A stretch of 34,025 nt of DNA from a virus (Duplodnaviria; Caudoviricetes): positions 1 through 34,025 of the IMG/VR virus record IMGVR_UViG_3300030433_001888. One strand, 5' to 3'. The number at the start of each line of letters is the position of its first letter. The stretch's first letter is position 1. Under the pieces are notes generated by a model. It made no database searches. It was not told the origin of the DNA and was given only the letters and a program-made list of their open reading frames with translations. The position numbers and the translations under genes are program-made. Positions 11,310-34,025 of the stretch are shown one piece after another.

Positions 11310-11311
11310 GT

Positions 11312-11348
11312 GAAGGGGGGCGGCTCCGGCTGCCCCCTTTTTTTTCTT
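11312..11348 (+). terminator. Rho-independent terminator
   Basis: GGGGGCGGC-TCCG-GCTGCCCCC followed by a T-run. Confidence 0.85.
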
Positions 11349-11360
11349 TGGGGATATAAA

Positions 11361-14667: not shown

Positions 14668-15110
14668 GCTTTTTGTTTCCAATCGCAGCGGGTCGCCAAG
14701 AGCAGGCCGCTTATAATTACAATGCAGATATTAACGAGCGAAATGCAAAGGTGGCCGAACAAGAGGCAGCCCAGCTTGTTTTTCAAGAAGAGCAAAACAT
14801 TGTCCAGTTTCGCGAGGACATTTCTGATCTGCAAGACGCTACGGGCCAGGCGTTTAGATACAACGGCTGGATTGCTGACGAAGGCACACCCTTAAAGGTG
14901 GCCTTGGCAAACGCCCAAGAGGCTGACGAGGAAATAGCTATACGACGTTACAATGCGCAAGTTGGCAGGCGGGAATATTTAGAAGGCGCAGCCCAAGAAC
15001 GCATGCAAGGCACACTGAACAGGATGTATGGGCAGGCCGCTCGTCGGGCTGGTCAATATGGTGCGATAGGTAGCCTTCTAGGCTCCGCTTCTCGTGTGGC
15101 TCAAGCCTAA
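14664..15110 (+). CDS. Internal virion/ejection protein (gp14-like)
   Basis: ATGA overlap; Ala/Gln-rich helical with GTPL motif. Confidence 0.7.
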   Translation: MSFLFPIAAGRQEQAAYNYNADINERNAKVAEQEAAQLVFQEEQNIVQFREDISDLQDATGQAFRYNGWIADEGTPLKVALANAQEADEEIAIRRYNAQVGRREYLEGAAQERMQGTLNRMYGQAARRAGQYGAIGSLLGSASRVAQA

Positions 15111-16894: not shown

Positions 16895-16913
16895 GCAAAG
16901 AACAGGTAACACA

Positions 16914-19028: not shown

Positions 19029-19040
19029 TTTCATTTAACT

Positions 19041-19062
19041 GGCCGCCCTGCGCGGCCTTTTT
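19041..19062 (+). terminator. Intergenic terminator-like hairpin
   Basis: GGCCGC-N5-GCGGCC-TTTTT. Confidence 0.55.
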
Positions 19063-19066
19063 CTAT

Positions 19067-22000
19067 ATGGCAATAAATTCAAACGTACCAGATAGGCTGG
19101 CGCGCGAAGCGCTGGCCACCGGCGGCATGCGTCGGCCTTTGCAAGGGCAAGACGTGCTAGAGACAGACCCACGCCAACTTGACCTTGAGCTGCTGCCCAA
19201 GGCTGAGCTGGATGCCATAGAGCAAGTGACGCCAACGGACACGGAAGAGATCGAGGTTGCTGTGCTTGGCCATGCAGGGCCGCTTGCCAATAAGGTTTTA
19301 CAGGGTGGCAAAGAGATGGTTGGCCGCGCTCTGTCGCCAAAAGAGGACGTATTCAATAAATCTCAAGAGGTACTGCAACGCCTTAGAGAAGAAGAGCTGG
19401 TGCCACCAGAGCAAGCCCCGCCAGTTTTGGAACCAGATGCAGCGCCTGCCACCGGCGATGACCTCAATGCCGAAATGGAAAGCATGGGTTTCAATCAAGC
19501 CTATGACGATGATCAAGCCCAGGGTTATGAGGCGTTTCAGCAAGGCTCCGTTGTTGATCGCGACACAGAAGACCAGGTGCGCCGGATACTAGATGAACCC
19601 GCCCAGGTAGACAGCAAGGGCATGCTGGATGATTTCCGTGCGGTAGGCGCGGCAGGTGACGCTAAAATCCCTGATGAAGAAGGGGTGCTCTCATCAATCC
19701 AGGCAATAAGCAAAACATATGCCGGCAAGATAACCGAAGAAAAGCGCGGCACTATCACGCTCGAAGCGACGCGCCAGCTTGCTGATTTGGTTGGCGTGGC
19801 CCCAGAGCGTTTGCAGGCCACAATTCTTGGCCGCCAGCGTGGCGGTGTAATCATTGACCAAGAGGGTGGTCTGGGCCTTGCCGAAAGTATGGTGGCCGCG
19901 CGCGATCTGCTAGTTGCAGAAATGAAGAGGCTGGATCAGCTCGCAAAAAAAGCTGAATTCGGAACTGATGAAGACGCGCTAAATTTTCGCGCACAGCTTG
20001 AGCTGGTCGCGCAGTTGCAAGCGCAAATAAAGGGCGCTCAAACAGAAATAGCCAGAGCGCTTAGCTCGTTTCGCATTCCAGCGCGAGATGCTGGCCAGGG
20101 TGAAGAAATGCGAGCAGGCGACGTGCAGAACCTGCTGGAGCAGTTTGGCGGGGCCGACGATGCCAAGGACATGGCAAAAGCCTACAACCAAGCCGGCAGC
20201 AACCCGGCGGCTAAGGCAGCAGTGGCAAGGGGCTTCTCCAAAACCAAGCGGTTCAGTGACGCTGCTTACGAGGTGTGGATCAACGTGCTGTTGAGCAGCC
20301 CCGTTACACACACAAAAAACATTGTGGGTGCCTTTCTGACGACATTTGCACATTTACCGGAAACATATGCAGCCGCAACTGTAGGCGCTGTGCGACAGAG
20401 GCTCGGCGGCCGCCAAGCTGCTGTGTCTATGGGCGAGGCAAATGCGGCATTGTTTGGCACGGTAATGTCCATGCGAGAGGCTTTCGGCGCTGCCGGCAAA
20501 ACATTTAAAACCGGCGATCAAGCAATCGCTGGTAGCAAGCTAGAGGGGCATCAGGGCAGGCGCAATCCTAGAGCATTCAGCGCTCAAGGTCTGCAAGCTC
20601 AAGGTTACGGCACAGCCATCGACATGCTCGGCAAGTTTATGACGCTAGGCCGGTTGCCCACCCGCGCCCTAGAGTTTGAGGACACGTTTTTCAAGGTGGT
20701 TGCACAGCGCCAGCTCCTGTATCAGAACGCCTATTCTACAGGCGTAGCAAAGGGCTTGCGTGGCGACGAGCTTGCCACACACATTGCTGAGTTTGTATTT
20801 GACCCACCTGCAAGCGCTTTAGAAAAAGCAGATGCACATGCTCAATATGTAACGCTACAAACAAACTTGGACAGCGTCGGCAAAAGCATGAAAAACATCC
20901 GGGACAAAGTTCCTGGCATGAGATATTTTTTGCCGTTTCTTAAAACGCCATATAACGCATTTAAATATGCGTTCATAGATCGCGGCCCTATCGGGTTGTT
21001 TTACGGAGAAAGCAAGGCGGCCATAGATAAAGCGAAGCTGCCAGGCGCGACAATGGCTGACAGGGCTGCGGGTGATGCAGCCATTGCACGATTAAGTATG
21101 GGCAACGCCACCCTATTTACCATGGCAGGGCTTGTGGCGGCTGGTCAGGTAACTGGCAAGGGGCCAAACGATAAGGGCATCCGTGACAATCTGCGCCAAA
21201 CTGGCTGGCAACCTTACAGCGTAAAGGTAGGCAATCAATATGTAAGCTATGTCGGAATGGAACCGTTTAGCTCCGTGATGATGCTTGGTGCTGATGCTGC
21301 CGAAGTTTTGATGAGCGGTGCCGTTGATCAAGACAGCGCTGAGGAACTGATCGCCGGAGTGGCGGCGGCCTTTGCTTACCAGCTTACCGAAAAAACTTTT
21401 ATGTCTGGGTTTTCAAGCCTGGTAAATACTCTAAACGATCCTACTCGTTATGCTGGCAACACCATTGAAAGCCTGGTTGGGTCTTTTGTCCCGCGAATAG
21501 TCGCGCAGATTGAGCGAAATGTTGATCCAACGGTGCGCGCTGCTGAAGGCGTTTTGGAGCGCATAAAATCACAGGTGCCGGGTTGGAGTTCAACCCTGCC
21601 GCCGAGGCGCAACCTTGCAGGTCAGGCCATTGTGTTAGACGGAGCATACGGCCCTGACGTATTCAGCCCATTATACTCAACGACAACTGGGCCAAACAAA
21701 TTTGACCCGGACAAAAAGCGCGCGCAACGCGCGTTTGATATGTTCCAAGAGCTTATTGACGTGCGGTTTAAAAGCACTCCGCACCCGGACACATTTAATT
21801 CGGATATTAGTCTGTCGCCAGAGGCAACAGACGTTTACCACCAGTATGCCGGCAAGCGCACTCTGGACTATTTAGAAAAACTTTTTGCTAACGATGAATA
21901 TCAGCGAGTAAGGGCCAACGCTTTGAACGGCGACCTGACGGCGCGTGAAATATTGCACAACAGTATCCGCAGGCAAGTTGCCGCAGCGCGAAAAGACGCC

Positions 22001-22108
22001 AAAGAAGACCTGCAGAGAGATCCTGAATATGGACAAAAACTGAACGACCTGCTTGAGAGGATCGGCGAAGACAAAAAAGAAAAATATAGGAAGGCGATTG
22101 AACGCTAA
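19067..22108 (+). CDS. Large internal virion/ejection protein (gp16-like)
   Basis: 1013 aa; ED.FFK, PF.KTP.N, G.VTG.GP, GWQPYS motifs typical of podoviral core proteins. Confidence 0.75.
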   Translation: MAINSNVPDRLAREALATGGMRRPLQGQDVLETDPRQLDLELLPKAELDAIEQVTPTDTEEIEVAVLGHAGPLANKVLQGGKEMVGRALSPKEDVFNKSQEVLQRLREEELVPPEQAPPVLEPDAAPATGDDLNAEMESMGFNQAYDDDQAQGYEAFQQGSVVDRDTEDQVRRILDEPAQVDSKGMLDDFRAVGAAGDAKIPDEEGVLSSIQAISKTYAGKITEEKRGTITLEATRQLADLVGVAPERLQATILGRQRGGVIIDQEGGLGLAESMVAARDLLVAEMKRLDQLAKKAEFGTDEDALNFRAQLELVAQLQAQIKGAQTEIARALSSFRIPARDAGQGEEMRAGDVQNLLEQFGGADDAKDMAKAYNQAGSNPAAKAAVARGFSKTKRFSDAAYEVWINVLLSSPVTHTKNIVGAFLTTFAHLPETYAAATVGAVRQRLGGRQAAVSMGEANAALFGTVMSMREAFGAAGKTFKTGDQAIAGSKLEGHQGRRNPRAFSAQGLQAQGYGTAIDMLGKFMTLGRLPTRALEFEDTFFKVVAQRQLLYQNAYSTGVAKGLRGDELATHIAEFVFDPPASALEKADAHAQYVTLQTNLDSVGKSMKNIRDKVPGMRYFLPFLKTPYNAFKYAFIDRGPIGLFYGESKAAIDKAKLPGATMADRAAGDAAIARLSMGNATLFTMAGLVAAGQVTGKGPNDKGIRDNLRQTGWQPYSVKVGNQYVSYVGMEPFSSVMMLGADAAEVLMSGAVDQDSAEELIAGVAAAFAYQLTEKTFMSGFSSLVNTLNDPTRYAGNTIESLVGSFVPRIVAQIERNVDPTVRAAEGVLERIKSQVPGWSSTLPPRRNLAGQAIVLDGAYGPDVFSPLYSTTTGPNKFDPDKKRAQRAFDMFQELIDVRFKSTPHPDTFNSDISLSPEATDVYHQYAGKRTLDYLEKLFANDEYQRVRANALNGDLTAREILHNSIRRQVAAARKDAKEDLQRDPEYGQKLNDLLERIGEDKKEKYRKAIER

Positions 22109-22126
22109 GGAAGAGGCTAGGAATAT

Positions 22127-25018
22127 ATGACAGTATCTACAACAACATCAAAGGCATCCGCGAGTGCAAACGGCACACAGCACAGCTTTGCCTATGGGTT
22201 CAAAATATTTGCCGATGCCGACCTGCAAGTAATTGTGCGCGCCGCTGACGGCACTGAAACATTAAAGACGCTCAACACACATTATATTGTGACTAATGCA
22301 GGCAGCTCAAGCGGCGGCAACGTCTTGTTTAAATTCAATACCGGCACCAGCTCTGACGCCCATTTCAGCAGCACAGACCAGCGCCCTCAGTCTGGCGAAA
22401 CCGTTGTTATTAAGCGTGAGCTGACGCTGACCCAAGGCACAGACTATGTCGCAAACGATCCCTTTCCAGCAGAAAGCCATGAGGATGCGCTCGACCGGCT
22501 AACCTTTATAACCCAGCAGCAACAGGAAGAGCTTGACCGCACGATCAAGGCGTCCGTGACTAACACCATTAGTGGGGCAGAGTTTGCTCTGTCAGCGACC
22601 GACCGCGCAAACAAAGTTATGGCGTTTGACGGCTCCGGCGATCTCAGCGTGACGCAAGAGCTTGGAACATTCAAAGGCAACTGGGCTGCAAGCACTGACT
22701 ATGTTGTGCGGGATATTGTCAAAGATAGCGGCACCAATAACATCTTTATAGTGAACACCGCGCACACATCCTCTGGCTCGTTGCCACTGACAACAAACAC
22801 CAACAGCGCAAAATATGATCTCATAGTCGATGCGGCCACAGCAACAACAGCTCAGACGGCTGCGGCGTCCAGCGCTTCAGCAGCCAGCACCAGCGCAAGC
22901 ACGGCAACCACAAAGGCGTCCGAGGCTGCAACCTCTGCCACAAACGCTGCGACCAGTGCCTCGACGGCGACAACAAAGGCCAGCGAGGCATCAACATCTG
23001 CCAGCAATGCCAGCACCAGCGAGACAAACGCCGCAGCCTCTGCAACTACTGCATCGACACAGGCATCGACTGCTACCACTAAGGCAAGCGAGGCAGGCAC
23101 CAGCGCAACTAACGCAGCAGCGAGCGCCTCGACGGCTACGACCAAAGCAAGTGAAGCGGCTACCAGTGAAACAAATGCCGCAGCTTCTGCAAGCACAGCC
23201 ACGACAAAAGCGTCTGAGGCTGCGACAAGCGCCACCAACGCCGCGACCTCTGAGACCAATGCGGCAACAAGCGCAACCGGCGCAGCCAGCTCGGCAACGG
23301 CAGCCGCGTCGTCTGCAACTGCGGCGGCATCTTCACAAACTGCGGCAGCGGCCTCTGCGGCAAGCGCGGCCTCGGCATTTGATAATTTTGATGATACTTA
23401 CCTCGGAAGCAAAACTAGCAATCCAACAGTCGATAATGATGGCGATGCACTTGTGGCAGGTGCGTTGTATTTCAACAGCACGGCCAATGAGATGCGTGTC
23501 TATGATGGTGCAAACTGGATTGCCGCAACCTCGGCTGGCAATGTAAGTTTGATCCTGTACGAATACACTGCTACGTCTGGCCAAACTACCTTCTCAGGCA
23601 GTGACGATAACAGTGCCACACTGTCCTACACAGTAGACAATCTTCAGGTTGTGATGAATGGCGTGGTGCTTGATCCAGCAGATTTTACTGCAACCAATGG
23701 CACCAGTGTTGTGCTGGATAGCGGAGCTACGCTTGGCGACCAAATAAACATCTATGCTTTTAAATCTTTTACTACAGCAGATATGGTTTCCAAAACCTCT
23801 GGTGGTACGTTTAGTGGTGCAGTTGGATTTAGTGGTGGCATCACAGGTGATGTAACTATCGATGACAAAATTGTTCACGCTAGCGATACCAACACCGCCA
23901 TCCGCTTTCCAGCTAACGATACGGTCACAATAGAAACGGCTGGCTCAGAACGTGTGCGTGTTACTGATGCTGGAAATGTTGGTATTGGCGCAACGCCAAA
24001 TGCTTATACGGGTTTTACAGTTCTTACTCTTGGCGGTTCAGGTAGTTCTGACTTAGATTTTGAAAAAAATGGTACTGTCATTGCTTCTCAATATACAACG
24101 AGTAGCAATGACAAGTTTTTTATCCAATCAGTTCAGGATGGAATGGTTTTTCAAACGGCTGGAAGTAATGACCGTATGGTTATTGACAGTTCGGGCAATG
24201 TGCTGGTGTCGAAAACGTCAGCCAACACTAGCACTGTAGGCGTGGAAGCAAGAGAAAATGGACTGCTTGTCGCCACTAGGGACGGCGGTCAACCATTATT
24301 GGTTGACCGATTAACAGATGATGGCAACTTAGTTTTATTGCGCAAAGACAGCGCAGGTGTTGGGGGCATTAGTACAAAATCAAGTGACATCATCATTGGC
24401 ACGGGTGACGCAGGAATAAGTTTCAACGATGGCAATAACGCTGTTATTCCTGCGAAATTTGGCACTAATGAATTTAGTGATAATTTTCTTGATTTAGGTG
24501 CATCAACCAATCGCTGGGATGATGTCCGTGCCACCAACGGCACTATTCAAACATCAGACGCAAATGAAAAACAACAAATTGCCAGCCTAACTGACGCAGA
24601 AATTACTGCCGCCAAAGCAATCAGCAAACTGTTCAAGACCTTCAAATGGAATGACAAGGTTGAAGCCAAAGGCGATGCCGCCAGAACGCACACTGGCGTA
24701 GTTGCCCAAGAGGTGCAGTCGGCTATGAGCGATGCAGGGCTTGATGCAACCAAATACGCTTTCTGGTGTTCTGACACTTGGTGGGAAAAAGATGTTGAGG
24801 TGCCAGCCCTGGAAGCTGACGAAGAAAACGGCATTGAGGCACAAGACGCATACACCCGCACAGATACGTATCACACAGCCGAAGAAGCACCTGAAGGTGC
24901 AACAGAGCGCACCCGCCTTGGTGTTCGCTATCCTGAACTGCTGGCGTTCATCGGTGCGGCGACAGAGCAACGATTGGCTGACATTGAAACACGATTAACT
25001 GCACTGGAGGCTGGATAA
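22127..25018 (+). CDS. Tail fibre with T7 gp17-like N-terminus, Ala/Ser/Thr stalk and C-terminal S74-type autochaperone
   Basis: E.ALDRLT...QQ anchor; TSDANEKQQI, HTGVVAQEV, GVRYPEL, RLTALE. Confidence 0.9.
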   Translation: MTVSTTTSKASASANGTQHSFAYGFKIFADADLQVIVRAADGTETLKTLNTHYIVTNAGSSSGGNVLFKFNTGTSSDAHFSSTDQRPQSGETVVIKRELTLTQGTDYVANDPFPAESHEDALDRLTFITQQQQEELDRTIKASVTNTISGAEFALSATDRANKVMAFDGSGDLSVTQELGTFKGNWAASTDYVVRDIVKDSGTNNIFIVNTAHTSSGSLPLTTNTNSAKYDLIVDAATATTAQTAAASSASAASTSASTATTKASEAATSATNAATSASTATTKASEASTSASNASTSETNAAASATTASTQASTATTKASEAGTSATNAAASASTATTKASEAATSETNAAASASTATTKASEAATSATNAATSETNAATSATGAASSATAAASSATAAASSQTAAAASAASAASAFDNFDDTYLGSKTSNPTVDNDGDALVAGALYFNSTANEMRVYDGANWIAATSAGNVSLILYEYTATSGQTTFSGSDDNSATLSYTVDNLQVVMNGVVLDPADFTATNGTSVVLDSGATLGDQINIYAFKSFTTADMVSKTSGGTFSGAVGFSGGITGDVTIDDKIVHASDTNTAIRFPANDTVTIETAGSERVRVTDAGNVGIGATPNAYTGFTVLTLGGSGSSDLDFEKNGTVIASQYTTSSNDKFFIQSVQDGMVFQTAGSNDRMVIDSSGNVLVSKTSANTSTVGVEARENGLLVATRDGGQPLLVDRLTDDGNLVLLRKDSAGVGGISTKSSDIIIGTGDAGISFNDGNNAVIPAKFGTNEFSDNFLDLGASTNRWDDVRATNGTIQTSDANEKQQIASLTDAEITAAKAISKLFKTFKWNDKVEAKGDAARTHTGVVAQEVQSAMSDAGLDATKYAFWCSDTWWEKDVEVPALEADEENGIEAQDAYTRTDTYHTAEEAPEGATERTRLGVRYPELLAFIGAATEQRLADIETRLTALEAG
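22855..23380 (+). repeat. Coding heptad repeats (SASTATTKASEAATSATNAA)n
   Basis: About 5 imperfect 21-aa units in the fibre; codons diverged. Confidence 0.8.
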
Positions 25019-26118
25019 TGACTAGCAAAGCAAGACAACTAGCACAATCTGCAAGCGCACCTGATGGTCGTAAGAATATTGTAATAAATGGTGCAATGAA
25101 CGTCTGTCAAAGAGCAACTTCAGTATCTGGTTTGGGTGATGTATCGAATAGCGGATATCACGTTCAAGATAGGTTTGATATGGTTTTTAGCACTTCTGGA
25201 CGTTTTACTGTGTCTCAAGACAGTGATGCGCCAGCAGGGTTTAGTTCAGCAATGAAGCTGGCTTGTACAACTGCTGATACTTCTATTGGGGCTGATGAGT
25301 TTGGGCTTATTTCTTATCAAATAGAGGGTCAAGATTTGCAACATTTGCATAAAGGAACTTCGAGCGCAAAAGAACTGACGTTGTCTTTTTATGCAAAAGC
25401 AAATGCCTCAAAAACTTATGTAGTTGAAATGAGAGACTATGATAACAGCAGAATAATGTCCAAAGCATTTACGGTTGGAACAAGCTATAGTCGCATTGAG
25501 TTGACTTTCCCTGCCGACACAACAGGAGAGCTTGATAATGATAACGCCAGAAGTTTTGCAATTAATATTTTTATTCATGCTGGCAGCACTTATTCCAGTG
25601 GCACTTTAGGCACAACGTGGGCAGCTTCGGTCACAGCCAATCGTGCGGCGGGAGTTGAAAGTTTTTTTAGCAGTACAGACAACACATTTTTCATAACAGG
25701 CATCCAACTTGAAGTCGGCTCAGTAGCCACTGAGTTTGAGCATCGCACTTTTGCTGAAGATTTGCAGTTGTGTCAGAGATATTTTATTCGTTATCCAAGT
25801 TTGGCTGATGCGTCCACAGCAGTGTACCTCGCATTAGGTATGATACACAATTCGGCTATTGCTTATTTTCCACTGACATTACCTGTGCCTATGCGAACAG
25901 AGCCAGATTTGTCTATTTCTGGAACAGCAGATTTTCAAAGCATTGATAGTGGGACAATAAGAAACTTAACAAATCTTACACTTCTGGCAGATGGTTCTAT
26001 AGACAACAAAGTAATCGCTTTACAGGGTGCAGGAACTTTTCCCAACGAAGATAGGCCATCCATCTTGAAGGGCGATGGTACTTCAGGTGGTCACTTTGCT
26101 TTAGATGCGGAGCTTTGA
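25018..26118 (+). CDS. Second fibre/receptor-binding protein, carbohydrate-binding-like fold
   Basis: KNIVING.M.V.QR, TLSFYAK, ITGIQLEVGSVATEFEHR...LQLCQRY. Confidence 0.75.
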   Translation: MTSKARQLAQSASAPDGRKNIVINGAMNVCQRATSVSGLGDVSNSGYHVQDRFDMVFSTSGRFTVSQDSDAPAGFSSAMKLACTTADTSIGADEFGLISYQIEGQDLQHLHKGTSSAKELTLSFYAKANASKTYVVEMRDYDNSRIMSKAFTVGTSYSRIELTFPADTTGELDNDNARSFAINIFIHAGSTYSSGTLGTTWAASVTANRAAGVESFFSSTDNTFFITGIQLEVGSVATEFEHRTFAEDLQLCQRYFIRYPSLADASTAVYLALGMIHNSAIAYFPLTLPVPMRTEPDLSISGTADFQSIDSGTIRNLTNLTLLADGSIDNKVIALQGAGTFPNEDRPSILKGDGTSGGHFALDAEL

Positions 26119-26120
26119 GT

Positions 26121-26303
26121 ATGGATGAGATGAATATTACATCAGCAAAGTTTATTGCAGATATGGATGGTAACAACACATCTATTCAATGCACAATAAA
26201 TGGAACGATATGGTGCGTTCTAATGAATAACGATAGCACCCGATATCAAGAAATTTTACGACAAGTAGAAGCTGGCACACTTACAATTGTGGATGCTGAC
26301 TGA
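26121..26303 (+). CDS. Small fibre-associated protein/chaperone
   Basis: YQEILRQVEAGTLTI.DAD; follows the fibre gene. Confidence 0.6.
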   Translation: MDEMNITSAKFIADMDGNNTSIQCTINGTIWCVLMNNDSTRYQEILRQVEAGTLTIVDAD

Positions 26304-26470
26304 TGACGAGACCAACAGCAGCAAGCGTCCAAGCCCAGCTTGATACACATGAGGCCGTGTGCGCTGAGCGGTGGGCCGAGACCATTGCCAGGATCAAGAG
26401 GATCGAGCTTCTGATTATCACAAGTGCCGGTGGCAGCATTGCGCTGCTGCTTTCGCTGGTTCTGACGTAG
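26303..26470 (+). CDS. 55-aa coiled-coil plus TM protein, XhlA-like (not in the ORF track)
   Basis: MTRPTAASVQAQLDTHEAVCAERWAETIARIKRIELLIITSAGGSIALLLSLVLT*. Confidence 0.7.
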   Translation: MTRPTAASVQAQLDTHEAVCAERWAETIARIKRIELLIITSAGGSIALLLSLVLT

Positions 26471-26479
26471 GCACCCAAA

Positions 26480-26923
26480 ATGCTCGGCGAATTGGCGGCA
26501 GCTAACGCGGCCTTTGCAATCATTAAACAAGCTGTGCAAAACGGACGCGAGCTTGCCGATGCCGGAGCGGCTATCACAAAATATGTTGGTGCAAAAGAGG
26601 AATTGTCACGACGGGCAAAAAAGAAAAAACGCCGAGGCGTAGACAACAGCGACCTCGAAGAGTTCATGGCGCTTGAGAAACTGAAGCAACAGGAAGATCA
26701 GCTACGGGAGACAATGATCTGGTCGGGCCGACCCGGACTATGGCAGGACTGGCAGGCATTTCAAGCGCAGGCGCGTAAGTCTCGTCGTGTCCAGGAGCAG
26801 CTCGCCAGGAAACGCCGCGAAGAATTTGTCCGCGCATTTATGATTTTTCTCGGCATTGTAGTCGGCATCGTCGGCGTTGTTGGGCTGATTGTCTGGGCCT
26901 TGTTCTTACGAGCTTTACAATGA
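26480..26923 (+). CDS. Membrane-anchored hypothetical protein (lysis region)
   Basis: Helical, with C-terminal TM segment. Confidence 0.7.
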   Translation: MLGELAAANAAFAIIKQAVQNGRELADAGAAITKYVGAKEELSRRAKKKKRRGVDNSDLEEFMALEKLKQQEDQLRETMIWSGRPGLWQDWQAFQAQARKSRRVQEQLARKRREEFVRAFMIFLGIVVGIVGVVGLIVWALFLRALQ

Positions 26924-27147
26924 TGGACGTGTTTTTGTTGCTGGTTTATCTGGGCGTCGGTGAAGACCGGCGCATGGAAAGCAACAAGATGCATTTTCGT
27001 GATTTAACAGAGTGCAACTTTTTTGCGCGCAATCTGAGCAAGCGCTACGGCACACATCGCGACATGCGATACATCGACAAGCGAGATCGGGTCACTGCTT
27101 ACTGCGTACCGAAGCGCGTCGATCCCAAAAGAGTAAGGGTCTATTGA
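26920..27147 (+). CDS. Small exported hypothetical protein
   Basis: Hydrophobic N-terminus, F..L..C...AYCVP; ATGA overlap. Confidence 0.6.
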   Translation: MMDVFLLLVYLGVGEDRRMESNKMHFRDLTECNFFARNLSKRYGTHRDMRYIDKRDRVTAYCVPKRVDPKRVRVY

Positions 27148-27275
27148 AAATTTATAGGTATCAGCGGCTAAACAAGATGCGCGCTTACAACCTTGCGCGG
27201 AAAAAAGAGCGCAAGACCAACAGCACAAACTTTCAGATTTATAAACGCAACAATCGGGATAATATCTATGCTTAA
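27144..27275 (+). CDS. 43-aa basic AT-rich ORF (TTG start)
   Basis: TTGA overlap upstream and 8-bp overlap with the holin start. Confidence 0.4.
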   Translation: MKIYRYQRLNKMRAYNLARKKERKTNSTNFQIYKRNNRDNIYA

Positions 27276-27633
27276 TTTATTGCAGCCCATTGCCGGTCTG
27301 GCTGGACAGTGGATGGCAAATCGCGCCGAAAAGGCAAAGGCCAAGCAAGCTCTGGCCGTCGCTAAGATCGAAGCCAAAACCAAAAAGGTACAGTCCGATG
27401 CGAATTGGGAAGAGCAGGCCATGTCTGCCAGCCAGGATAGCTGGAAGGATGAAGCCTGGACGCTGACCTTTATCGCCCTCATATTCGCCTGCTTTATTCC
27501 AGCGCTCCAACCCTACATTGCCGACGGCTTTAAGTTCTTGCGAGAGGATTGCCCCGAATGGCTAACCTATGGAATTTTGGCAAGTATCGCTGCAAGCTTT
27601 GGCCTAAAAAGCATTGGCAAGCTGAAGGGCTAG
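27268..27633 (+). CDS. Holin-like membrane protein
   Basis: SWKDE motif, two TM segments, directly before the endolysin. Confidence 0.7.
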   Translation: MLNLLQPIAGLAGQWMANRAEKAKAKQALAVAKIEAKTKKVQSDANWEEQAMSASQDSWKDEAWTLTFIALIFACFIPALQPYIADGFKFLREDCPEWLTYGILASIAASFGLKSIGKLKG

Positions 27634-27641
27634 ACGCAGAC

Positions 27642-28091
27642 ATGAAGCTCAGCAAAAATTTTAGTCTGCGCGAAATGACCAAAAGCCAGACCGCCTTGCG
27701 CATGGGTATCAGCAACACGCCAACGATTGATAAAATACAAAACCTGAAAGCTCTGTGTGAAAATGTTTTGCAGCCGGTGCGTGATCATTACGACCGGCCA
27801 GTCACTATCACGAGTGGCTATCGGTGCGAAGAGCTGTGCCAGGCTATTGGCTCGAAGGTCACAAGCCAACACGCACTCGGTCAGGCGGCTGATTTCGAGA
27901 TTGCCGGAATAAGCAATTATGGCGTCGCTGAGTGGATAGCAAAACACTGCGTGTTCGACCAGCTCATCCTAGAATTTTACACAGGCGGCAATACGGGCTG
28001 GGTGCATTGCAGCTACGCCCCAGACCCGCGCGGTCAGACGCTGACATACGACAAAGAAAACGGATATCGGAAAGGATTGATCGATGCCTGA
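27642..28091 (+). CDS. Endolysin, peptidase M15 family
   Basis: LSKNFSL.E, SGYR, SQH..GQAAD, WVH. Confidence 0.9.
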   Translation: MKLSKNFSLREMTKSQTALRMGISNTPTIDKIQNLKALCENVLQPVRDHYDRPVTITSGYRCEELCQAIGSKVTSQHALGQAADFEIAGISNYGVAEWIAKHCVFDQLILEFYTGGNTGWVHCSYAPDPRGQTLTYDKENGYRKGLIDA

Positions 28092-28242
28092 AGCACTGGA
28101 GAAAAGCCTGATGGCTCGCGCTCGAAAAAAGGGACTGAAGGGCAAAGCGCGTGACAGATACGTCTATGGCACCCTGACCCGCATCGCTGGGCCAAAAGGC
28201 TCCGAACGAGCTGGCAAGACCGGAGCGGTGCGTCGTGGCTAA
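28084..28242 (+). CDS. 52-aa basic protein (not in the ORF track)
   Basis: MPEALEKSLMARARKKGLKGKARDRYVYGTL...; overlaps both neighbours by 8 bp. Confidence 0.6.
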   Translation: MPEALEKSLMARARKKGLKGKARDRYVYGTLTRIAGPKGSERAGKTGAVRRG

Positions 28243-28534
28243 GACACCAGCTTGGCAGCGCAAGGCAGGCAAGAACCCAAAGGGCGGTTTAAACGAAGCC
28301 GGTCGCCGCTCAGCTCGCGCCCAGGGCATGAACTTAAAACGCCCTGTCAAATCGGGTGACAATCCTCGCCGCGCATCCTTTCTTGCGCGCATGGGAAACA
28401 TGCCAGGGCCGGAGCGCAGAAACGGCAAGCCGACACGATTATTATTATCCTTGCGAGCGTGGGGCGCGAGCAGCAAGGCAGATGCCAGAGCAAAGGCAAA
28501 ATCAATCAGCGCTAGAAACAAACGAAAGGGGTAG
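28235..28534 (+). CDS. Basic protein (DUF6321-like)
   Basis: PAWQRKAGKNPKGGLN..GR...RRASFLARM. Confidence 0.7.
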   Translation: MAKTPAWQRKAGKNPKGGLNEAGRRSARAQGMNLKRPVKSGDNPRRASFLARMGNMPGPERRNGKPTRLLLSLRAWGASSKADARAKAKSISARNKRKG

Positions 28535-28536
28535 TT

Positions 28537-28665
28537 ATGCCTAGTCATTACGGCGGTGGACGCAAAAAATCTGGATCAATGATGAAGATGGCTCGCATGA
28601 AAAAGCAGGCGGCGACAGCGATGGCGATGAAGAAAGCCGGAAAGAAACCCAAGCGCCGTGGCTAA
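28537..28665 (+). CDS. 42-aa Lys/Met-rich protein (not in the ORF track)
   Basis: MPSHYGGGRKKSGSMMKMARMKKQAATAMAMKKAGKKPKRRG*. Confidence 0.6.
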   Translation: MPSHYGGGRKKSGSMMKMARMKKQAATAMAMKKAGKKPKRRG

Positions 28666-28843
28666 GAAAAAATCTACGGTCAACAAGGCCGGTAATTATA
28701 CCAAGCCTGGCATGCGCAAGCGCATGTTCCAGTCGATCCTCGGGCGCAATGTTCAAGGCACTGCGGCCGGCAAGTGGTCTGCTCGGAAAGCTCAGCTTCT
28801 GGCCAAGCGCTACAAGGCAGCCGGTGGGGGGTATCGAAACTAA
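28658..28843 (+). CDS. Basic protein (DUF5872-like N-half)
   Basis: NYTKP..RK...GKWSARKAQLLA..YK..GGGY. Confidence 0.7.
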   Translation: MAKKKSTVNKAGNYTKPGMRKRMFQSILGRNVQGTAAGKWSARKAQLLAKRYKAAGGGYRN

Positions 28844-29082
28844 TGCATAATCCACAGCACAGTCTGCGCCAGTGGGGCAAACAAAACTGGCGCACGAAGT
28901 CTGGCAAGAAGTCCAGCGAGACCGGCGAGCGCTATTTGCCTGCCGCTGCGATTGCCAGCCTGACCCCTGCCGAGTACGCGCGCACCACCGCTGCAAAGCG
29001 CCGTGCCAAGAAAGCTGGCAAGCAATTTTCAAAGCAGCCTGAAAGCATAATGAAAAAAACGCGCCGGTTTCGCAAATCCTAG
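28843..29082 (+). CDS. Basic protein (DUF5872-like C-half)
   Basis: Q.SL..W.KQ.WRTKSGK.S..TGERYLP. Confidence 0.7.
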   Translation: MHNPQHSLRQWGKQNWRTKSGKKSSETGERYLPAAAIASLTPAEYARTTAAKRRAKKAGKQFSKQPESIMKKTRRFRKS

Positions 29083-29084
29083 CC

Positions 29085-29128
29085 GCATGCCAAGCGCATG
29101 CCAAGCGCATGCCAAGCGCATGCCAAAC
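29085..29128 (+). repeat. Four tandem 11-bp repeats GCATGCCAA(G/A)C, putative integrase arm-type sites
   Basis: Direct repeats ~90 bp left of the att core. Confidence 0.8.
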
Positions 29129-29217
29129 ACCACGAATAACCCGCAACACGGGTCACAACTTGTTGTTCGTATGTACCGGTTTTGTTGGTTTGTGCGCGTG
29201 GTGGTACAAAAAATACG

Positions 29218-29242
29218 GGTTCAAGTCCTACCGGGGTCGCCA
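29218..29242 (+). mobile_element. attP core: 3' end of a host tRNA (probably Arg)
   Basis: GGTTCAAGTCCTACCGGGGTCGCCA = T-loop, 3' T-stem, acceptor stem and CCA; lies between arm repeats next to int. Confidence 0.85.
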
Positions 29243-29288
29243 TCCACCCCCTTGATATCATTACATATTTTCTGAAAACACCCTTTCT

Positions 29289-29310
29289 GCATGCCAAACG
29301 CATGCCAAAA
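29289..29310 (+). repeat. Two tandem arm-type repeats
   Basis: GCATGCCAAAC GCATGCCAAAA. Confidence 0.8.
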
Positions 29311-29315
29311 AGGGC

Positions 29316-29359
29316 TTGTAATTGCTTTTCTGGGTCTCTACGTTGACGGTATAAGTCAA
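29316..29359 (+). promoter_or_regulatory. int promoter and operator-like palindrome
   Basis: TTGTAA-N17-TACGTT; TTGAC-N7-GTCAA at 29343-29359. Confidence 0.5.
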
Positions 29360-29377
29360 ATTTATGGAGACCGACCC

Positions 29378-30517
29378 ATGGATATTTCAGTTACACAACA
29401 CAAGACGCAACTTAAAAAAGGCTGGGCAAGTTTTTGCGTTGACACTCGCTCAATCGTTGAAAATGGCAAACGAAATTATTTTGTTACGCGCGAGGAAGCA
29501 CAAGCTTTTGCTGACAACCTTAAAAAAGAACTGACCCCCAACCTCGCAGAGGCGTGGGACTGGGATTTTAAAACACTGCAAGATCGATTTGAACGGCATT
29601 TGGAAAATCAATATCGGGACGGCGATATCGAGCTGGCAAATTTGCAGGGCAAGAAGCGACACGTCCAAAATTTTGTTAATCTCAATCTTGGGGGTGCGAC
29701 CTTGCTAACGACCAAAGTTCGCGACCTTACTGCTGGGCAAGTGCGACTAGAGTTGATGGATCAACTTAGAACAAACAGCAGAGATGCAAAGCGTCAGAGA
29801 ACACGCAAAACTGTCCTAAATATTATTATGGACGTGCGCGCGATGTTTGACTACGCGATGGATGCCGGTTGTCGCAACACCAATCCAATGGACGGTGTAA
29901 AACCGAAGGGCGCAAAAAAAATGGGCAATGGTAAACACAAGCGCATACAGCCCGACATTATCGATGCCATTATTGCAGCAATGCCTGAGCATTGGGCATT
30001 GCGCGCACGGTTCGCAGCAACGACTGGCCTACGCCAGGGCGAGCAGCGCGCGCTGCGATGGGCGCATGTTGATTTAGAAAGTGGATTTGTTCGCGTCACT
30101 GAGGCGGTAAAATCACGCGCTGGCGTTGGAGATACAAAAACCGTGAAGGGCAATCGCAGGGTGCCGCTGACGCCAGACGTTAAAAAATTATTGCAAGAGT
30201 TATACCTGCGCACAGGTCGGCCCGATGATGACCAGCTAGTGTTTCCAAGCGCGACTGGACATATGTTAAGCCAAACCAGGTTTCTTGTGGCAATACACAG
30301 AGCATGCGACGCAGCCGGGGTAGAACGTATTCGCTGGCACGATCTGAGGCACTACTATGCAAGCCGTATTCTACAAGCTTTTGATGGTGACTGGTGGGCG
30401 GTTACTAACCTTATGGGTCATACGTCCATCAAGACAACGACGGACACCTACGGTCATTGGCTAGAAACGGCAGAGCAAAATCAGCGTGTTGCAGACACGA
30501 TCAGTCAGGCGTTCTAG
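29378..30517 (+). CDS. int: Tyrosine integrase
   Basis: GGAG RBS; TGLRQGE, TKT, HDLRH, LMGH, TYGH catalytic set. Confidence 0.95.
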   Translation: MDISVTQHKTQLKKGWASFCVDTRSIVENGKRNYFVTREEAQAFADNLKKELTPNLAEAWDWDFKTLQDRFERHLENQYRDGDIELANLQGKKRHVQNFVNLNLGGATLLTTKVRDLTAGQVRLELMDQLRTNSRDAKRQRTRKTVLNIIMDVRAMFDYAMDAGCRNTNPMDGVKPKGAKKMGNGKHKRIQPDIIDAIIAAMPEHWALRARFAATTGLRQGEQRALRWAHVDLESGFVRVTEAVKSRAGVGDTKTVKGNRRVPLTPDVKKLLQELYLRTGRPDDDQLVFPSATGHMLSQTRFLVAIHRACDAAGVERIRWHDLRHYYASRILQAFDGDWWAVTNLMGHTSIKTTTDTYGHWLETAEQNQRVADTISQAF

Positions 30518-31292
30518 CTTGCACCTGCCTGCGTAAATTTTTTATTTGTTCCAATATTTCGTCCCGCTCATTACGAGGTGGAGCGCTTGAAAGAGTTATT
30601 GGCACGGTGGAAGCGTTGGAATAAGTGCTGTGGTAGGTTATACCCGATGACGCGCTGGTGGTGTATTGGCTATGCACTGAGCTTTTTATGTTCCGAAGTT
30701 TTTCTTCTAAGCTGCTAATTTGTTTTTGCAGGTCGAGCGTTTCGTTGTCGTACAGGATGCGCTCAGAAGGCGTGGCATTTTTATACCAGCGGTTCAGTTC
30801 TCTTCTTTTGCGTTCCTGTCTAAGTTTTTCAATACGGGCGCGCACTGCCTTTATGTTTTCTTGCCGCTTATCTTCCAGCTCCTGTAAGCGCCGCGCTTCC
30901 ATCCGCTTGTAGTGCCGGTGCTTATCCATTATTTTTCGCGTCAACGGTACGCGCTTGCCCGTTGACGTAACAAGCGAGCAGGTATTCGAGGCAGGGTTGA
31001 CGCGCTGCACAGCAAGATCAAGCTCGTTGTCTGCACCAATGACATGGCCGGTCAAAAAGTAGAAGTGATCATCGTCCGTGTCCCACAAAAGAGACCCGTT
31101 AATTTTATATGCAACATTGCGCGCAATGTTTGCGTCGCGGATGCTTTTGAAAAAAGCTACCCCGTTTGGTTCTAGATTGAGCAGTGTGGCAGCCACGTCC
31201 AACACGCGGGGTCGGGGATACAGCTTTGTATCTTTAAACAAGGTAATGTTCGCCAGCGCTTTGGCCTTGTCGTCACTGTTGTCGGTCATCAC
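30501..31292 (-). CDS. Hypothetical coiled-coil protein
   Basis: 263-aa ORF; charged helical centre; converges on and overlaps the int 3' end. Confidence 0.65.
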   Translation of the reverse strand: MMTDNSDDKAKALANITLFKDTKLYPRPRVLDVAATLLNLEPNGVAFFKSIRDANIARNVAYKINGSLLWDTDDDHFYFLTGHVIGADNELDLAVQRVNPASNTCSLVTSTGKRVPLTRKIMDKHRHYKRMEARRLQELEDKRQENIKAVRARIEKLRQERKRRELNRWYKNATPSERILYDNETLDLQKQISSLEEKLRNIKSSVHSQYTTSASSGITYHSTYSNASTVPITLSSAPPRNERDEILEQIKNLRRQVQARTPD

Positions 31293-31425
31293 ATTTTCTC
31301 GTTTCGATTGCGGCCTGATGAAACCGCAGCGCGAGCTGGTCGAGCTGCTCGGCGGTCAAAGATCGCGAGACAAAGGTTTCGTCAATCAGGCAGTTGATCC
31401 GGCCCCTGGTCGGGTACACTATCAA
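31273..31425 (-). CDS. ~50-aa hypothetical protein (TTG start inferred)
   Basis: Fills the gap between the xis-like gene and 31292. Confidence 0.4.
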   Translation of the reverse strand: MIVYPTRGRINCLIDETFVSRSLTAEQLDQLALRFHQAAIETRKCDDRQQ

Positions 31426-31600
31426 GACCGACAGCGGCGTCGATGGCAGAGCGCTGGACGTAGATACGTCGCCCGACCGTGATCTCTTGCAGCTTGTGCT
31501 TTTTGATAAGATTGCGCGCGCGGTAGTAAGCGTCGCGGTTTTGATTGTCAAAAAGATATTCCGCAACTTCTTTAATGGTGAGTAGCTTGGCATTTGTCAT
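31382..31600 (-). CDS. xis: Excisionase-like winged-helix protein
   Basis: LLTIKEVAEYL...VGRRIYVQRSAID. Confidence 0.75.
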   Translation of the reverse strand: MTNAKLLTIKEVAEYLFDNQNRDAYYRARNLIKKHKLQEITVGRRIYVQRSAIDAAVGLDSVPDQGPDQLPD

Positions 31601-31989
31601 CAGATACCCCCATCGCCAAACGGATCATCAAACGGGTCGGCTGCAAGCGGTGGTGGTGACGAGCTGGGCGCGGCTTGAGCATCCGGCTCATTAACGATAA
31701 GCTTGAACTGCATGACCTTTGGATACTCACGCACATTGTCGCTGCCGTTGCGTTGCGTCAGGGTGATGCCGATCTCGGCGCCCACCTCAGCAAAAAGCCG
31801 ATGCAGCTCGTCGCACTTGGCCTGCTGCTCGGCAGTCAATGGCACATAGCTTTTCGACAGGTCGTTCCACTCTTGCTTAAATTGAATGTAACCGACCGCG
31901 CGATATTCTTGCGGCGCGCCGTTTGGCGCAGTTGCAAGCACGTCCTGTTTTGGTTTGATGCGCGCATATGAAAAGTGTGGTTTAACCAT
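31600..31989 (-). CDS. Putative ssDNA-binding protein
   Basis: Follows the SSAP; Pro-rich linker and acidic DPFDDPF tail. Confidence 0.5.
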   Translation of the reverse strand: MVKPHFSYARIKPKQDVLATAPNGAPQEYRAVGYIQFKQEWNDLSKSYVPLTAEQQAKCDELHRLFAEVGAEIGITLTQRNGSDNVREYPKVMQFKLIVNEPDAQAAPSSSPPPLAADPFDDPFGDGGI

Positions 31990-32716
31990 CTCTTTCTCCG
32001 TTGTTTAATGTTTGCAATGTTTCCGTGTATTGCTGCACGAGCAAATTCCACTGATCGACGCTGGCCGCTCTCAAGTCGTTGCGCGTTCTGGCTGTCGAGT
32101 TTCTCCAAGCCCCAAGCCGTTCCATTGTGGTTATGCTTTTTATTTGATTGCACTGTTCCTTGACCCAGGCAGCCCAGTCGTCCGTGTCAAACGGTACGTC
32201 CTCGACGGGTGGGGCGGCGGGCTCGGTTTGTTGGGGGACAGGGGCAGAGGCAGGGGCAGGTGTTCCTTGCGCGACCACATCTTCCATTTCGTTTGCAGAT
32301 GCGTATTCGGAACCAGCAAGCCCTATGCTCGCCAAGGCGCGACCGATTGCTGCTGTTTCCGTTTTTTCCAAAGCTGCGCGACCGCGCGGCTTTTCGGCGT
32401 GGCCTGTTCCAATTATTTGTTGGACGACCTCACTTCCAACAATCGTGTCTTTGGTCACGACGGCTTTTACTCTAAGGCTGGCGTCGTCGCTGCCCTCGAC
32501 AAATGTTTGTACGCTGTACCGGTGGCCAAAATACTTGCGAAATATTCCGACGCGGTGATGCACCATTGTGTATTTTTTGCCGTTTAACTCGACGCCAAAG
32601 CGCTCGTTAATTTCGTTAAGCTCATTCACCGCAGCTTGTATTGTCGCGCTGTCGTCCCAGGCTTTTGGTTTGTTGTAGCCAGGATCGCCTGGCTGAATGT
32701 CTAACCGCTGTGTCAT
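31982..32716 (-). CDS. Single-strand annealing recombinase (Rad52/Erf-like)
   Basis: GKKY..V..RV, GTGHAE, LEK.ET.AIGRALA..G...EYAS..EM. Confidence 0.75.
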   Translation of the reverse strand: MTQRLDIQPGDPGYNKPKAWDDSATIQAAVNELNEINERFGVELNGKKYTMVHHRVGIFRKYFGHRYSVQTFVEGSDDASLRVKAVVTKDTIVGSEVVQQIIGTGHAEKPRGRAALEKTETAAIGRALASIGLAGSEYASANEMEDVVAQGTPAPASAPVPQQTEPAAPPVEDVPFDTDDWAAWVKEQCNQIKSITTMERLGAWRNSTARTRNDLRAASVDQWNLLVQQYTETLQTLNNGERDG

Positions 32717-33654
32717 TGTGACCCCCAAAACTTTTTCGCTTCTTGAATGAATGTGACCGGCTCATTCCAATACATTGCGCGCCAATCTGGACTAACTAGG
32801 CTAAACAACTCATGCTTGCATGTGGCCGTGCGCAGAATGTTTTCTGTCGTCTTTTCACGCATGGCAATGTCAGCCACCACGTCATGCAGATAATCATCGC
32901 GCAGCTCTGGTGCGTTCTCTGGCGTAAACACCCGATAGTCTGACGCATTGGCGTACACAATGAAGGGTGGCCGGTGACCATTCAGCGCCCAAAAGCCAGC
33001 GGCCTGGTACACGTTGTTCATGTCGAACATGCCCGTGAGGCTGTTGGGCAGGCTACCACTCTGCCAGCCGCTCTTGGCACGACTGCTGGGCCTAGACCAT
33101 TTTGTCTTGAGATCGCCTCGGTTGGCATAATCTGGTTTGGTGTTGTGGGGCAGGGCGCAGCCAGGCAGCGTGTCCAATAGCTGCATCTCACCAAGGATGC
33201 GATTGTCGCCTGCCATTGCCTCTCTAAGGCCCTTTACAGCGTGTTCTACGACCTTTGGTAGCTCTATGAGGTATTGCTCACGGCGCAGCTCATCATCGTC
33301 GTTTTTGGCCTTGTAACTGGCGAGCTGGTCAACGCCTGCGCGTGTAGCCTCGGCCATATCATAGGTCTTGCCCTGTTGGTCAGGCACAAGGGCCATGTCT
33401 GTGGCGGTCTGAACAGCTCTGCCAGCTTCCATGTTGGCGCTCGACCGGCCCTCGTACAGCCTGGACAGAACCCCGCGCGCTTCAATCTTTTCGGTCTCAG
33501 ATGCTACTGCATTTTTTAAAACAGCAAACGCCTTGTCTACTAATGGCCGGACGTGTGACTTCTCAAAGAAATCCTTGGCGCGGTCTTTGTTGCGCGGGTT
33601 GCTGTGGTGGAAATAGTTGTGTCGGATAGCCCAGTCGGGCAAGGTATGTAGCAT
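32713..33654 (-). CDS. PD-(D/E)xK exonuclease, allele B
   Basis: GR.VQ, E, KPDY, GDLKT, YQAAGFW; upstream of the SSAP. Confidence 0.75.
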   Translation of the reverse strand: MLHTLPDWAIRHNYFHHSNPRNKDRAKDFFEKSHVRPLVDKAFAVLKNAVASETEKIEARGVLSRLYEGRSSANMEAGRAVQTATDMALVPDQQGKTYDMAEATRAGVDQLASYKAKNDDDELRREQYLIELPKVVEHAVKGLREAMAGDNRILGEMQLLDTLPGCALPHNTKPDYANRGDLKTKWSRPSSRAKSGWQSGSLPNSLTGMFDMNNVYQAAGFWALNGHRPPFIVYANASDYRVFTPENAPELRDDYLHDVVADIAMREKTTENILRTATCKHELFSLVSPDWRAMYWNEPVTFIQEAKKFWGSQ

Positions 33655-33864
33655 GAATATGTACCTCTGAAGTGTACATATAACGCTAATGGGTGGCGTA
33701 TTTTACGTCAATTCTTTTGACGTGTTTTCCACAATTTTTGGTGTGGCAAATCTTAAATTTGGTCTTGATGTCGGTTCCGGTCACAATCTAAAAAACCCTA
33801 ATTTAATGGAACGGTATACGTCAACCCCCTAGATTATTCCGTCGAAGCAGTGTAGTTTTTATTG
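33655..33864. promoter_or_regulatory. Repressor-less version of the switch region
   Basis: Homologous to 239-324 and 1057-1152, joined by 28 unrelated bp. Confidence 0.85.
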
Positions 33865-34025
33865 ATGACTTTAGATACGTTTAGAAAAGAAAAGGGCTGG
33901 TCATTTGCGCACCTGGCACGCCAGCTCGGAGCTTCACACGCCACAGTGGCGCGGCGCTGGTGCCTGCCGCGCGATCACAAAAACCGGCTAATTCCCAGTC
34001 CAGTTTATATGGACAGAATTATTGT
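33865..34025 (+). CDS. Cro-like regulator, allele B (truncated by window end)
   Basis: Same amino-acid sequence as 1153..; synonymous differences only. Confidence 0.9.
   Translation, partial: MTLDTFRKEKGWSFAHLARQLGASHATVARRWCLPRDHKNRLIPSPVYMDRII

What the first reader, a model, noticed from the sequence alone, without database searches (positions are those of the whole stretch)
33417..34025. Two alleles of the lysis-lysogeny switch: one with the repressor gene, one with it cleanly absent but operators kept
Seen: 1-324 aligns to 33417-33740 (~88%) and 1057-1313 aligns to 33769-34025. Between these blocks the left copy has 732 bp that is almost exactly the cI-like gene (stop at 326, start ~1042), while the right copy has 28 unrelated bp. 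Both leftward promoters and the palindromic sites are kept in the repressor-less copy despite divergence in their spacers. Int, attP and xis next to it look intact. Inference, model (a): a tandem dilysogen A-att-B, since the gene order across 29218-29242 is exactly what such a junction gives; B has no repressor and would be silenced in trans by A's CI. Model (b): a 32,712-bp circular repressor-less but integrase-positive phage, co-assembled with a cI+ relative. Either way a diverged lineage appears to retain integration machinery and operators without its own repressor.
Basis: partly seen in the sequence, partly recalled or inferred. Interest (0 to 1): 0.82.

Follow-up and report, generated by a model that had tools for sequence, protein, structure and literature searches.

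The report
Wild marine phage missing its repressor
This contig is an assembly of two related marine phages: a real circular one whose predicted repressor gene is cleanly replaced by 28 bases while its integrase is intact, likely a young lytic offshoot of a temperate phage, plus a short fragment of a repressor-carrying relative; such offshoots are a known kind.

Summary
The repressor-less junction is real: contigs bridge it in 6 of 7 runs laid, and an independent contig runs from the integrase through the junction into the body with 0 mismatches. The window is a lasso: a 32,712-bp circle (allele B) plus a dead-end, low-depth cI+ fragment (allele A) joined by a 77-nt exact overlap. Model (b) is supported; the tandem dilysogen (a) is not. 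The lost gene folds like a phage 186/lambda CI, and no second repressor was found. Among relatives with the integrase slot covered, 50 of 50 cI+ loci have an integrase and 7 of 7 cI-less loci lack one; B is the only cI-less, integrase-positive case, probably an early stage of a repeated temperate-to-lytic shift. Kept operators are not evidence of trans-repression: B's sites nearly equal those of cI+ kin, and 14 of 16 cI-less relatives keep one too. The precedent is mycobacteriophage D29. Att-site relics point to PS1-clade Alphaproteobacteria as host.

The parts
2..238 (-). Allele A: 5' part of the exonuclease-like early gene, cut by the contig start (dead end)
   Evidence: label 'exo' is inferred, the full-length B copy has no Pfam or PHROG hit
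326..1042 (-). Allele A: CI-like repressor, 238 aa, N-terminal HTH plus a 186-CI/LexA-like C-terminal domain
   Evidence: Pfam HTH_26 1.3e-8, phrog_3 repressor 4e-10; model pLDDT 85; Foldseek lambda-186 hybrid E 1.4e-6; VIA 2fkd Z 8.8, rmsd 3.0, 105 aligned
1057..1152 (.). Allele A: divergent cI/cro control region
1153..1365 (+). Cro-like HTH gene; first 53 aa identical in A and B
   Evidence: (weak HTH hits below cut-off)
1237..1313 (.). 77-nt stretch identical to the contig end; the point where fragment A is joined to the circle
1314..34025 (.). The 32,712-bp circular repressor-less phage genome (allele B + body): HTVC010P-like podophage head, tail and lysis genes, no DNA polymerase found
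29084..29309 (.). attP region: 11-mer repeats (29084-29126, 29288-29308) around a 25-nt core (29218-29242) equal to the 3' end of tRNA-Arg(TCT)
   Evidence: arms 89-90% identical to a relic beside tRNA-Arg in a PS1-clade genome
29343..29359 (.). Perfect operator-like palindrome TTGAC-N7-GTCAA just upstream of the integrase ribosome-binding site
29378..30517 (+). Tyrosine integrase, 379 aa, catalytic R, K, H-x-x-R, H and Y motifs present
   Evidence: Pfam PF00589 6.6e-22
30501..31289 (-). 262-aa accessory protein of unknown family between int and xis; no sign that it is a repressor
31382..31600 (-). Excisionase-like HTH_17 gene, 94-97% identical to cI+ kin
   Evidence: (below cut-off)
32713..33654 (-). 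Allele B: exonuclease-like early gene, 313 aa
33655..33740 (-). Allele B: leftward early promoter region (-35 at 33706-33711, -10 at 33683-33688, read by eye) and a palindrome at 33657-33681 that likely is an RNA leader hairpin over the ribosome-binding site
33741..33768 (.). 28-nt filler that replaces the cI ribosome-binding site, coding sequence and stop codon
33768..33864 (.). Allele B: retained cI promoter (-35 at 33819-33824, -10 at 33795-33800, read by eye), operator-like site 33768-33784, and cro promoter region
33865..34025 (+). Allele B: 5' part of cro; continues on the circle at 1314

Best explanation
The window joins a real 32,712-bp circular marine phage genome, in which 28 bases replace the predicted CI repressor gene while int, attP and xis stay intact, to a short low-depth fragment of a cI+ relative, and the circular phage is likely a recent, obligately lytic (clear-type) offshoot of a temperate lineage that has not yet lost its integration module. 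Shown: the junction, the circle, the lasso join, the CI-like fold of the missing gene, intact integrase motifs, and coupling of cI with int in relatives. Inferred: on infection all operator-bearing promoters (early left, cro, int, and the now empty cI promoter) fire; with no CI only Cro can turn them down, so lysis follows. The sites persist because they overlap those promoters and likely bind Cro. B would still be repressed on entering a cell that holds a cI+ kin prophage (clear, not virulent), and could lysogenize only with borrowed CI, as D29 does.
For: Junction bridged in 6 of 7 runs laid; leaving out the two possible source runs, 4 of 5, including studies P3 and P4. L146 and L169 match with 0 mismatches and link attP-int-junction-body. 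A's cI is in pieces at depth 2.8-6.6 against 6.85-24.9 for B contigs; its cluster's longest other contig is 1,974 nt. No second repressor: the CI profile hits only 329-1090 among 652 frames; 72 leftover frames give only the cro HTH. Family: 88 of 104 distinct cro-exo loci are cI+; of 57 with the int slot covered, 50 of 50 cI+ have int, 7 of 7 cI-less lack it, and all 7 reach the late genes. The exo tree needs 5 changes, 4 forced, and puts B beside cI+ L001/L002 (support 100). 14 of 16 cI-less loci keep an operator-like site. Precedent: D29 (PMC5712189 passages).
Against: No culture, transcript or read-level data: all laid runs are contigs, and depth is not copy number. Recency is not shown: B differs from its nearest cI+ kin at 19-38% of synonymous sites in exo and 21-32% in cro, the filler has no traceable origin, and B appears in runs released from 2014 to 2022 with an intact integrase, which also fits selection to keep it. 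The runs were found with the B stretch, so B's excess over A is biased. The 262-aa protein has a low-confidence model (pLDDT 66.5), so a regulatory role is not excluded. The tree is the quick one; the careful search did not finish.
Confidence: 0.72

Rival explanations
1. Passenger prophage: B is kept by selection as a repressor-less phage that integrates at tRNA-Arg(TCT) and borrows CI from a co-resident or co-infecting cI+ relative.
For: Recognition helix 12 of 12 identical in A, L001, L002, L065 while the C-terminal domains share 57-89%; B's control regions nearly equal those of L065/L002; kin use other tRNAs (L002 core = tRNA-Lys), so co-integration is possible; one PS1 genome has att arms at three places; A pieces co-occur with B in X1, X2, X3, X5, X7, X8; D29 can lysogenize when repressor is supplied.
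Against: No B prophage or att junction was seen; no CI-family gene in 58 genomes of the likely host order (incomplete genomes, weak). An operator-like site sits at the int promoter, so resident CI would likely shut int off. Integrase-less relatives also keep operators. Near-identical integrases lie on contigs of the same length as cI+ contigs (32,561 nt; link inferred from lengths), so shared ancestry or recombination explains an intact int.
Confidence: 0.12
2. B is still temperate by a CI-independent route: Cro, the 262-aa accessory protein or a host factor holds it quiet, or integration serves a transient step of lytic growth.
For: int, attP and xis are intact; the 262-aa gene is absent from all 76 exo-anchored loci and has no known family.
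Against: No HTH by Pfam, PHROG, Atlas or Foldseek. Its homologues sit on contigs of 33,577 and 34,549 nt, the same lengths as cI-bearing contigs (inferred from lengths), so it does not appear to replace cI. Other cI-less lineages lost int.
Confidence: 0.09
3. Tandem dilysogen A-att-B in one chromosome.
For: The gene order across 29218-29242 would fit such a junction.
Against: The same order is what a circle gives. B joins the body directly in X1 and L146. A is several-fold lower in depth and fragmented. The contig has no host DNA and no full tRNA, and ends on an exact 77-nt overlap.
Confidence: 0.03
4. The junction is a misassembly.
Against: The same 28-nt filler appears in separate assemblies: 6 of 7 runs and 3 metagenome contigs, one with its own SNPs in the flank (X6, 2 in 433 nt). 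A 28-nt novel insert is not what repeat collapse makes.
Confidence: 0.02

Closest known systems
Mycobacteriophage D29 (also MissWhite): natural repressor-deletion derivatives of temperate Cluster A2 phages
   Same: Repressor lost, integration apparatus kept, operator sites kept, close temperate kin exist. PMC5712189 (passages) states that D29's integration apparatus is functional and that it forms lysogens if L5 repressor is supplied; PMC6550527 (passages) lists MissWhite as int+, delta-rep; PMC9262239 (passages) calls such phages relatively common.
   Different: Here the swap is exact (RBS to stop, 732 nt, for 28 nt) rather than a 3.6-kb multi-gene deletion; the phage is uncultured, marine and alphaproteobacterial; it is seen as a standing allele in wild samples from several studies. 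Lytic phenotype and immunity are untested.
HTVC010P-type pelagiphages (Du et al. 2021, PMC8477408; passages and section 19)
   Same: Major capsid 56-70% identical to 22 listed pelagiphage records; about 33-36 kb; divergent early and late regions; no polymerase found; M15 peptidase; lytic and temperate subgroups, with int and an HTH regulator travelling together.
   Different: GC 52%; host likely PS1 clade, not SAR11; no blastn match of the early region and no tblastn match of CI among 50,697 phage records. The passages seen describe int-plus-regulator or neither, not a clean cI loss with int kept.
Coliphage 186 CI / lambda CI-Cro switch
   Same: HTH plus a C-terminal domain of the 186-CI/LexA type; divergent cI and cro; leftward recombination operon with xis.
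   Different: No invariant Ser or Lys in the C-terminal domain across 47 sequences, so likely not self-cleaving (186 CI being non-cleavable is recalled, not from a call). One palindrome type and recognition helix are shared widely across the family. The int promoter carries an operator-like site.

Membership tests
D29-type natural clear derivative of a temperate phage | Repressor gene absent from the genome | tested here: met
D29-type natural clear derivative of a temperate phage | Close relatives carry repressor and integrase at the same loci | tested here: met
   L001, L002, L065
D29-type natural clear derivative of a temperate phage | Integration module intact in sequence | tested here: met
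   attP arms match host relics
D29-type natural clear derivative of a temperate phage | Cannot lysogenize alone (clear plaques) | not testable with these tools
   needs culture
D29-type natural clear derivative of a temperate phage | Still subject to kin immunity; lysogenizes if repressor is supplied | not testable with these tools
   predicted only, from helix and site identity
Phage CI-type repressor (326-1042) | N-terminal Cro/C1 HTH | tested here: met
Phage CI-type repressor (326-1042) | C-terminal 186-CI/LexA-like oligomerisation domain | tested here: met
   2fkd Z 8.8, rmsd 3.0, 105 aligned; LexA 3k2z Z 7.7; Foldseek E 1.4e-6 to 1.6e-4; moderate scores
Phage CI-type repressor (326-1042) | Divergent from cro and coupled to integrase presence | tested here: met
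Phage CI-type repressor (326-1042) | Binds operators and maintains lysogeny | not testable with these tools
   needs EMSA or reporter
Self-cleaving (RecA-induced) S24 repressor | Conserved Ser-Lys dyad | tested here: inconclusive
   no invariant or near-invariant S or K in the C-terminal domain of alignment A1; no Pfam S24 hit; active site not mapped on the model
HTVC010P-type phage group | Homologous T7-like head and tail module, no polymerases, divergent early and late regions | tested here: met
HTVC010P-type phage group | Whole-genome clustering with the group; SAR11 host | tested here: inconclusive
   no phylogenomic test run; GC 52% and att relics point to the PS1 clade
Tandem dilysogen | Equal depth of both prophage alleles and host flanks | tested here: not met

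The most novel reading that the evidence does not exclude
B is a wild repressor-free passenger phage: because this family shares one operator type and recognition helix, B integrates at its own tRNA and rides on CI made by kin prophages in PS1-clade cells, switching to pure lysis when no kin is present. The int-positive, cI-less state would then be a stable social-cheater strategy, not a passing stage.
Probability: 0.12. Interest if true: 0.75.

Novelty: new member of a known kind. Interest (0 to 1): 0.4.

Why it matters
It is a field example of the first step from temperate to lytic life in an abundant type of marine phage: repressor gone, integrase still whole, with finished cI-less, int-less lineages and cI+ sisters beside it in one family. 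It shows that an integrase alone can mislabel a marine phage as temperate. It also gives a likely host (PS1 clade) for an uncultured phage group and a small, testable switch (CI, Cro, one palindrome type). The class itself is known from D29, so the surprise is moderate.

Tried and rejected
Anchor-pattern scan of viral contigs: 0 matches. Same scan of metagenomes: 102 loci, of which 3 are the B junction; 97 are one unrelated 56-nt match, many in gut assemblies, and 2 are other unrelated matches; all 99 were dropped because blastn showed no similarity to the window. No other filler allele was found. Filler as a relic of the cI 5' end: not above shuffles. Filler as a terminator or mini-ORF: no terminator called on the leftward strand, no ATG-started frame between the cI promoter and exo. 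262-aa protein as substitute repressor: no family, no Atlas hit, 10 sequence relatives among representatives, no Foldseek match at E <= 0.001 on a weak model; this leaves it unassigned, not excluded. Named phage records: no match for the early region or CI. Integrase in G001: no match; CI profile in 58 genomes of that order: 0, uninformative because the genomes are incomplete and no positive control was present. X5's B junction with A-like cro letters may be a graph chimera through the 32-nt shared run at 1168-1199, so it is not counted as recombination. The operator pattern scan of the window gave 15 matches against a mean of 7 (2 of 100 shuffles as high), but palindromes count twice, so it is weak. 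The count of 21 of 46 int upstream regions with the site includes mis-placed starts and one mis-cut row. Earlier scan notes: nothing. Paper searches for a marine cI-less, int-positive case showed none in their listings; the library is partial, so this does not show it is unpublished. Supplements were not read.

Full report
Observation. The two blocks align as described: 286 of 324 and 228 of 257 identical. Allele A has 732 nt between them, allele B 28 nt. In three close cI+ loci the slot is 730-732 nt and runs from the cI stop codon to its ribosome-binding site, so B lacks exactly RBS, coding sequence and stop. The last 77 nt of the window equal 1237-1313, and base 1 has no exact partner. The window is the whole record and holds no tRNA gene. 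That is a lasso: a 32,712-bp loop (1314-34025) with a tail.

Is the junction real? Of 24 runs listed, 8 hold at least half of the words of 32700-34025; I laid 7 of them, all as contigs. Contigs bridge the junction in X1, X3, X5, X6 and X2, X7; X8 shows only 16 loose letters of it. X1 and X2 may be the source; without them it is 4 of 5, including studies P3 and P4. X1's 3,876-nt contig runs from 31946 through the junction to 3109; its 18 and 35 differences from A are exactly the B-versus-A differences. Metagenome contig L146 matches 29948-34025 and 1314-3254 with 0 mismatches, and L169 matches 28513-33991 with 0; these may share samples with the runs. A's cI appears as short pieces at depth 4.1 (X1), 3.9 and 6.6 (X2), 3.0 and 3.5 (X7), 2.8 (X8), against 21.6, 24.9 and 6.85 for B contigs. 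Depth here is no copy number and the runs were chosen with B, but equal depth and a host flank, which model (a) needs, are absent. cI+ alleles are not rare overall: the L065-type and L002-type CI clusters have 14 and 29 members.

What the phage is. A podophage with T7-like portal, capsid and tail genes, lysin and integrase; its capsid protein is 56-70% identical to HTVC010P-type pelagiphages. The att core equals the 3' end of tRNA-Arg(TCT) in 30 of 30 genome hits, named Alphaproteobacteria or unclassified Pseudomonadota. In one, a PS1-clade genome, the tRNA is followed by both phage att arms at 89-90% identity, fused at the 11-mer-like repeat: a prophage scar. A second genome of that order has three arm copies at tRNA-Lys, the target of close relative L002. 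The host is thus likely PS1 clade (inference).

What was lost. The 238-aa protein has an HTH and, in a model of pLDDT 85, a C-terminal domain like that of 186 CI and LexA, with no conserved Ser or Lys. No second copy exists in the circle. The 262-aa gene beside int shows no repressor features, though its model is weak.

Family survey. Scans with exo (76 loci) and cro (80 kept of 93) gave 104 distinct loci spanning both genes: 88 cI+, 16 cI-less. For 57 the int slot was covered (int seen, or at least 3,500 nt beyond exo; the other 47 were left out of this count): 50 of 50 cI+ have int, 7 of 7 cI-less do not. All 7 reach the late genes and give no int hit in a permissive search. These rows are not independent: the 7 fall in about four lineages. 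The quick exo tree (97 rows) needs 5 label changes, 4 forced by strong branches, and places B with cI+ L001 and L002. B is the only cI-less, int-positive case found. This matches the int-plus-regulator coupling described for HTVC010P-type phages (PMC8477408, section 19).

Operators. Relatives share a TTGAC-N7-G(T/A)CA-type palindrome at the cro promoter, before the cI RBS and at the early left promoter, with N6 in some sub-lineages; a perfect copy lies before int and in 21 of 46 int upstream regions. These sites contain the -35 hexamer (read by eye; the strict scan did not call the promoters). B differs from L065 at 2 of 86 and 5 of 96 intergenic sites and has 0 and 4 private changes; cI+ pairs are as conserved (L002-L065: 3 of 86 at exo pS 0.35), so nothing shows selection after the loss. 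14 of 16 cI-less loci, including int-less ones, keep such a site. The palindrome at 33657-33681 folds as an RNA hairpin over the exo RBS (-14.3 kcal/mol, no shuffle control), and other relatives have a different hairpin there, so it is likely a leader structure, not an operator.

Mechanism. Best reading (0.72): a clear-type lytic derivative. Without CI only Cro can damp the early promoters, so infection ends in lysis; int stays because the loss is young or because B exchanges DNA with cI+ kin. All 8 members of the integrase cluster are full length and 94-100% identical, and matching contig lengths suggest some sit with cI (inferred). The recognition helix is 12 of 12 identical in four close CIs, so B is predicted to stay sensitive to kin immunity. 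Against: the loss is undated, B's coding flanks differ from kin at 19-38% of synonymous sites, and B persists across runs released 2014-2022. Rivals: selected passenger lysogeny (0.12), CI-independent lysogeny or a lytic role for Int (0.09), tandem dilysogen (0.03), misassembly (0.02).

Known and new. D29 lost its repressor, kept working integration and lysogenizes when repressor is supplied (PMC5712189, passages); similar cases are called relatively common (PMC9262239, passages; PMC6550527, passages). This is a new member of that kind. What it adds is a precise one-gene swap seen in wild populations, within a family that shows both ends of the transition. Interest 0.4.

Noticed in passing
L209:349-607 (G001:C20): Prophage scar in a PS1-clade genome: tRNA-Arg(TCT), then the phage's right and left att arms fused at the repeat, ending in a core with a different tRNA 3' end. 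The same genome has arms at tRNA-Asp (L211) and on C14.
   Followed up: yes
L227:5220-12630 (G035:C4): tRNA-Lys followed by two cargo blocks bounded by three copies of this phage lineage's att arms, with no integrase or other phage gene found; cargo includes an McrB-N/NucS nuclease and a trypsin-like protein. Could be integrase-less cassettes moved by phage Int in trans, or eroded prophages; worth its own look.
   Followed up: partly
window 29218-29242 vs L002, L004, L013, L031: Close relatives keep near-identical att arms but swap the core (tRNA-Arg here, tRNA-Lys in L002); more distant ones carry other cores. The integrase N-terminus has two variants within one cluster.
   Followed up: partly
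window 326-1042 and L001, L002, L065: CI N-terminal domains are 81-95% identical with an identical recognition helix, but C-terminal domains only 57-89%, while cro is 97-100%: the likely sensing domain diversifies, not the DNA specificity.
   Followed up: partly
window 3894-4313 and 1722-2532: Other gene slots vary the same way: in X7 and X8, 418 nt are replaced by a 20-nt filler, and some contigs skip the PAPS-reductase-like gene.
   Followed up: no
L061-L064, L265, L056-L058, L072-L075: The slot between cro and exo holds an unrelated short gene in some cI-less loci (82 aa in L061-L064; another in L265) and an extra gene before cI in others.
   Followed up: no
window 4961-4978: An 18-nt exact inverted copy of the att-flanking repeat (29289-29306) lies between the terminase genes; role unknown.
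   Followed up: no
window 16914-19028: Large virion-region gene with a weak ART-PolyVal ADP-ribosyltransferase hit, E 1.4e-4, below cut-off.
   Followed up: no
window 30501-31289: Orphan 262-aa protein with a conserved N-terminal domain and long coiled coil; a 12-nt deletion variant occurs in X3, X6 and cluster members.
   Followed up: partly
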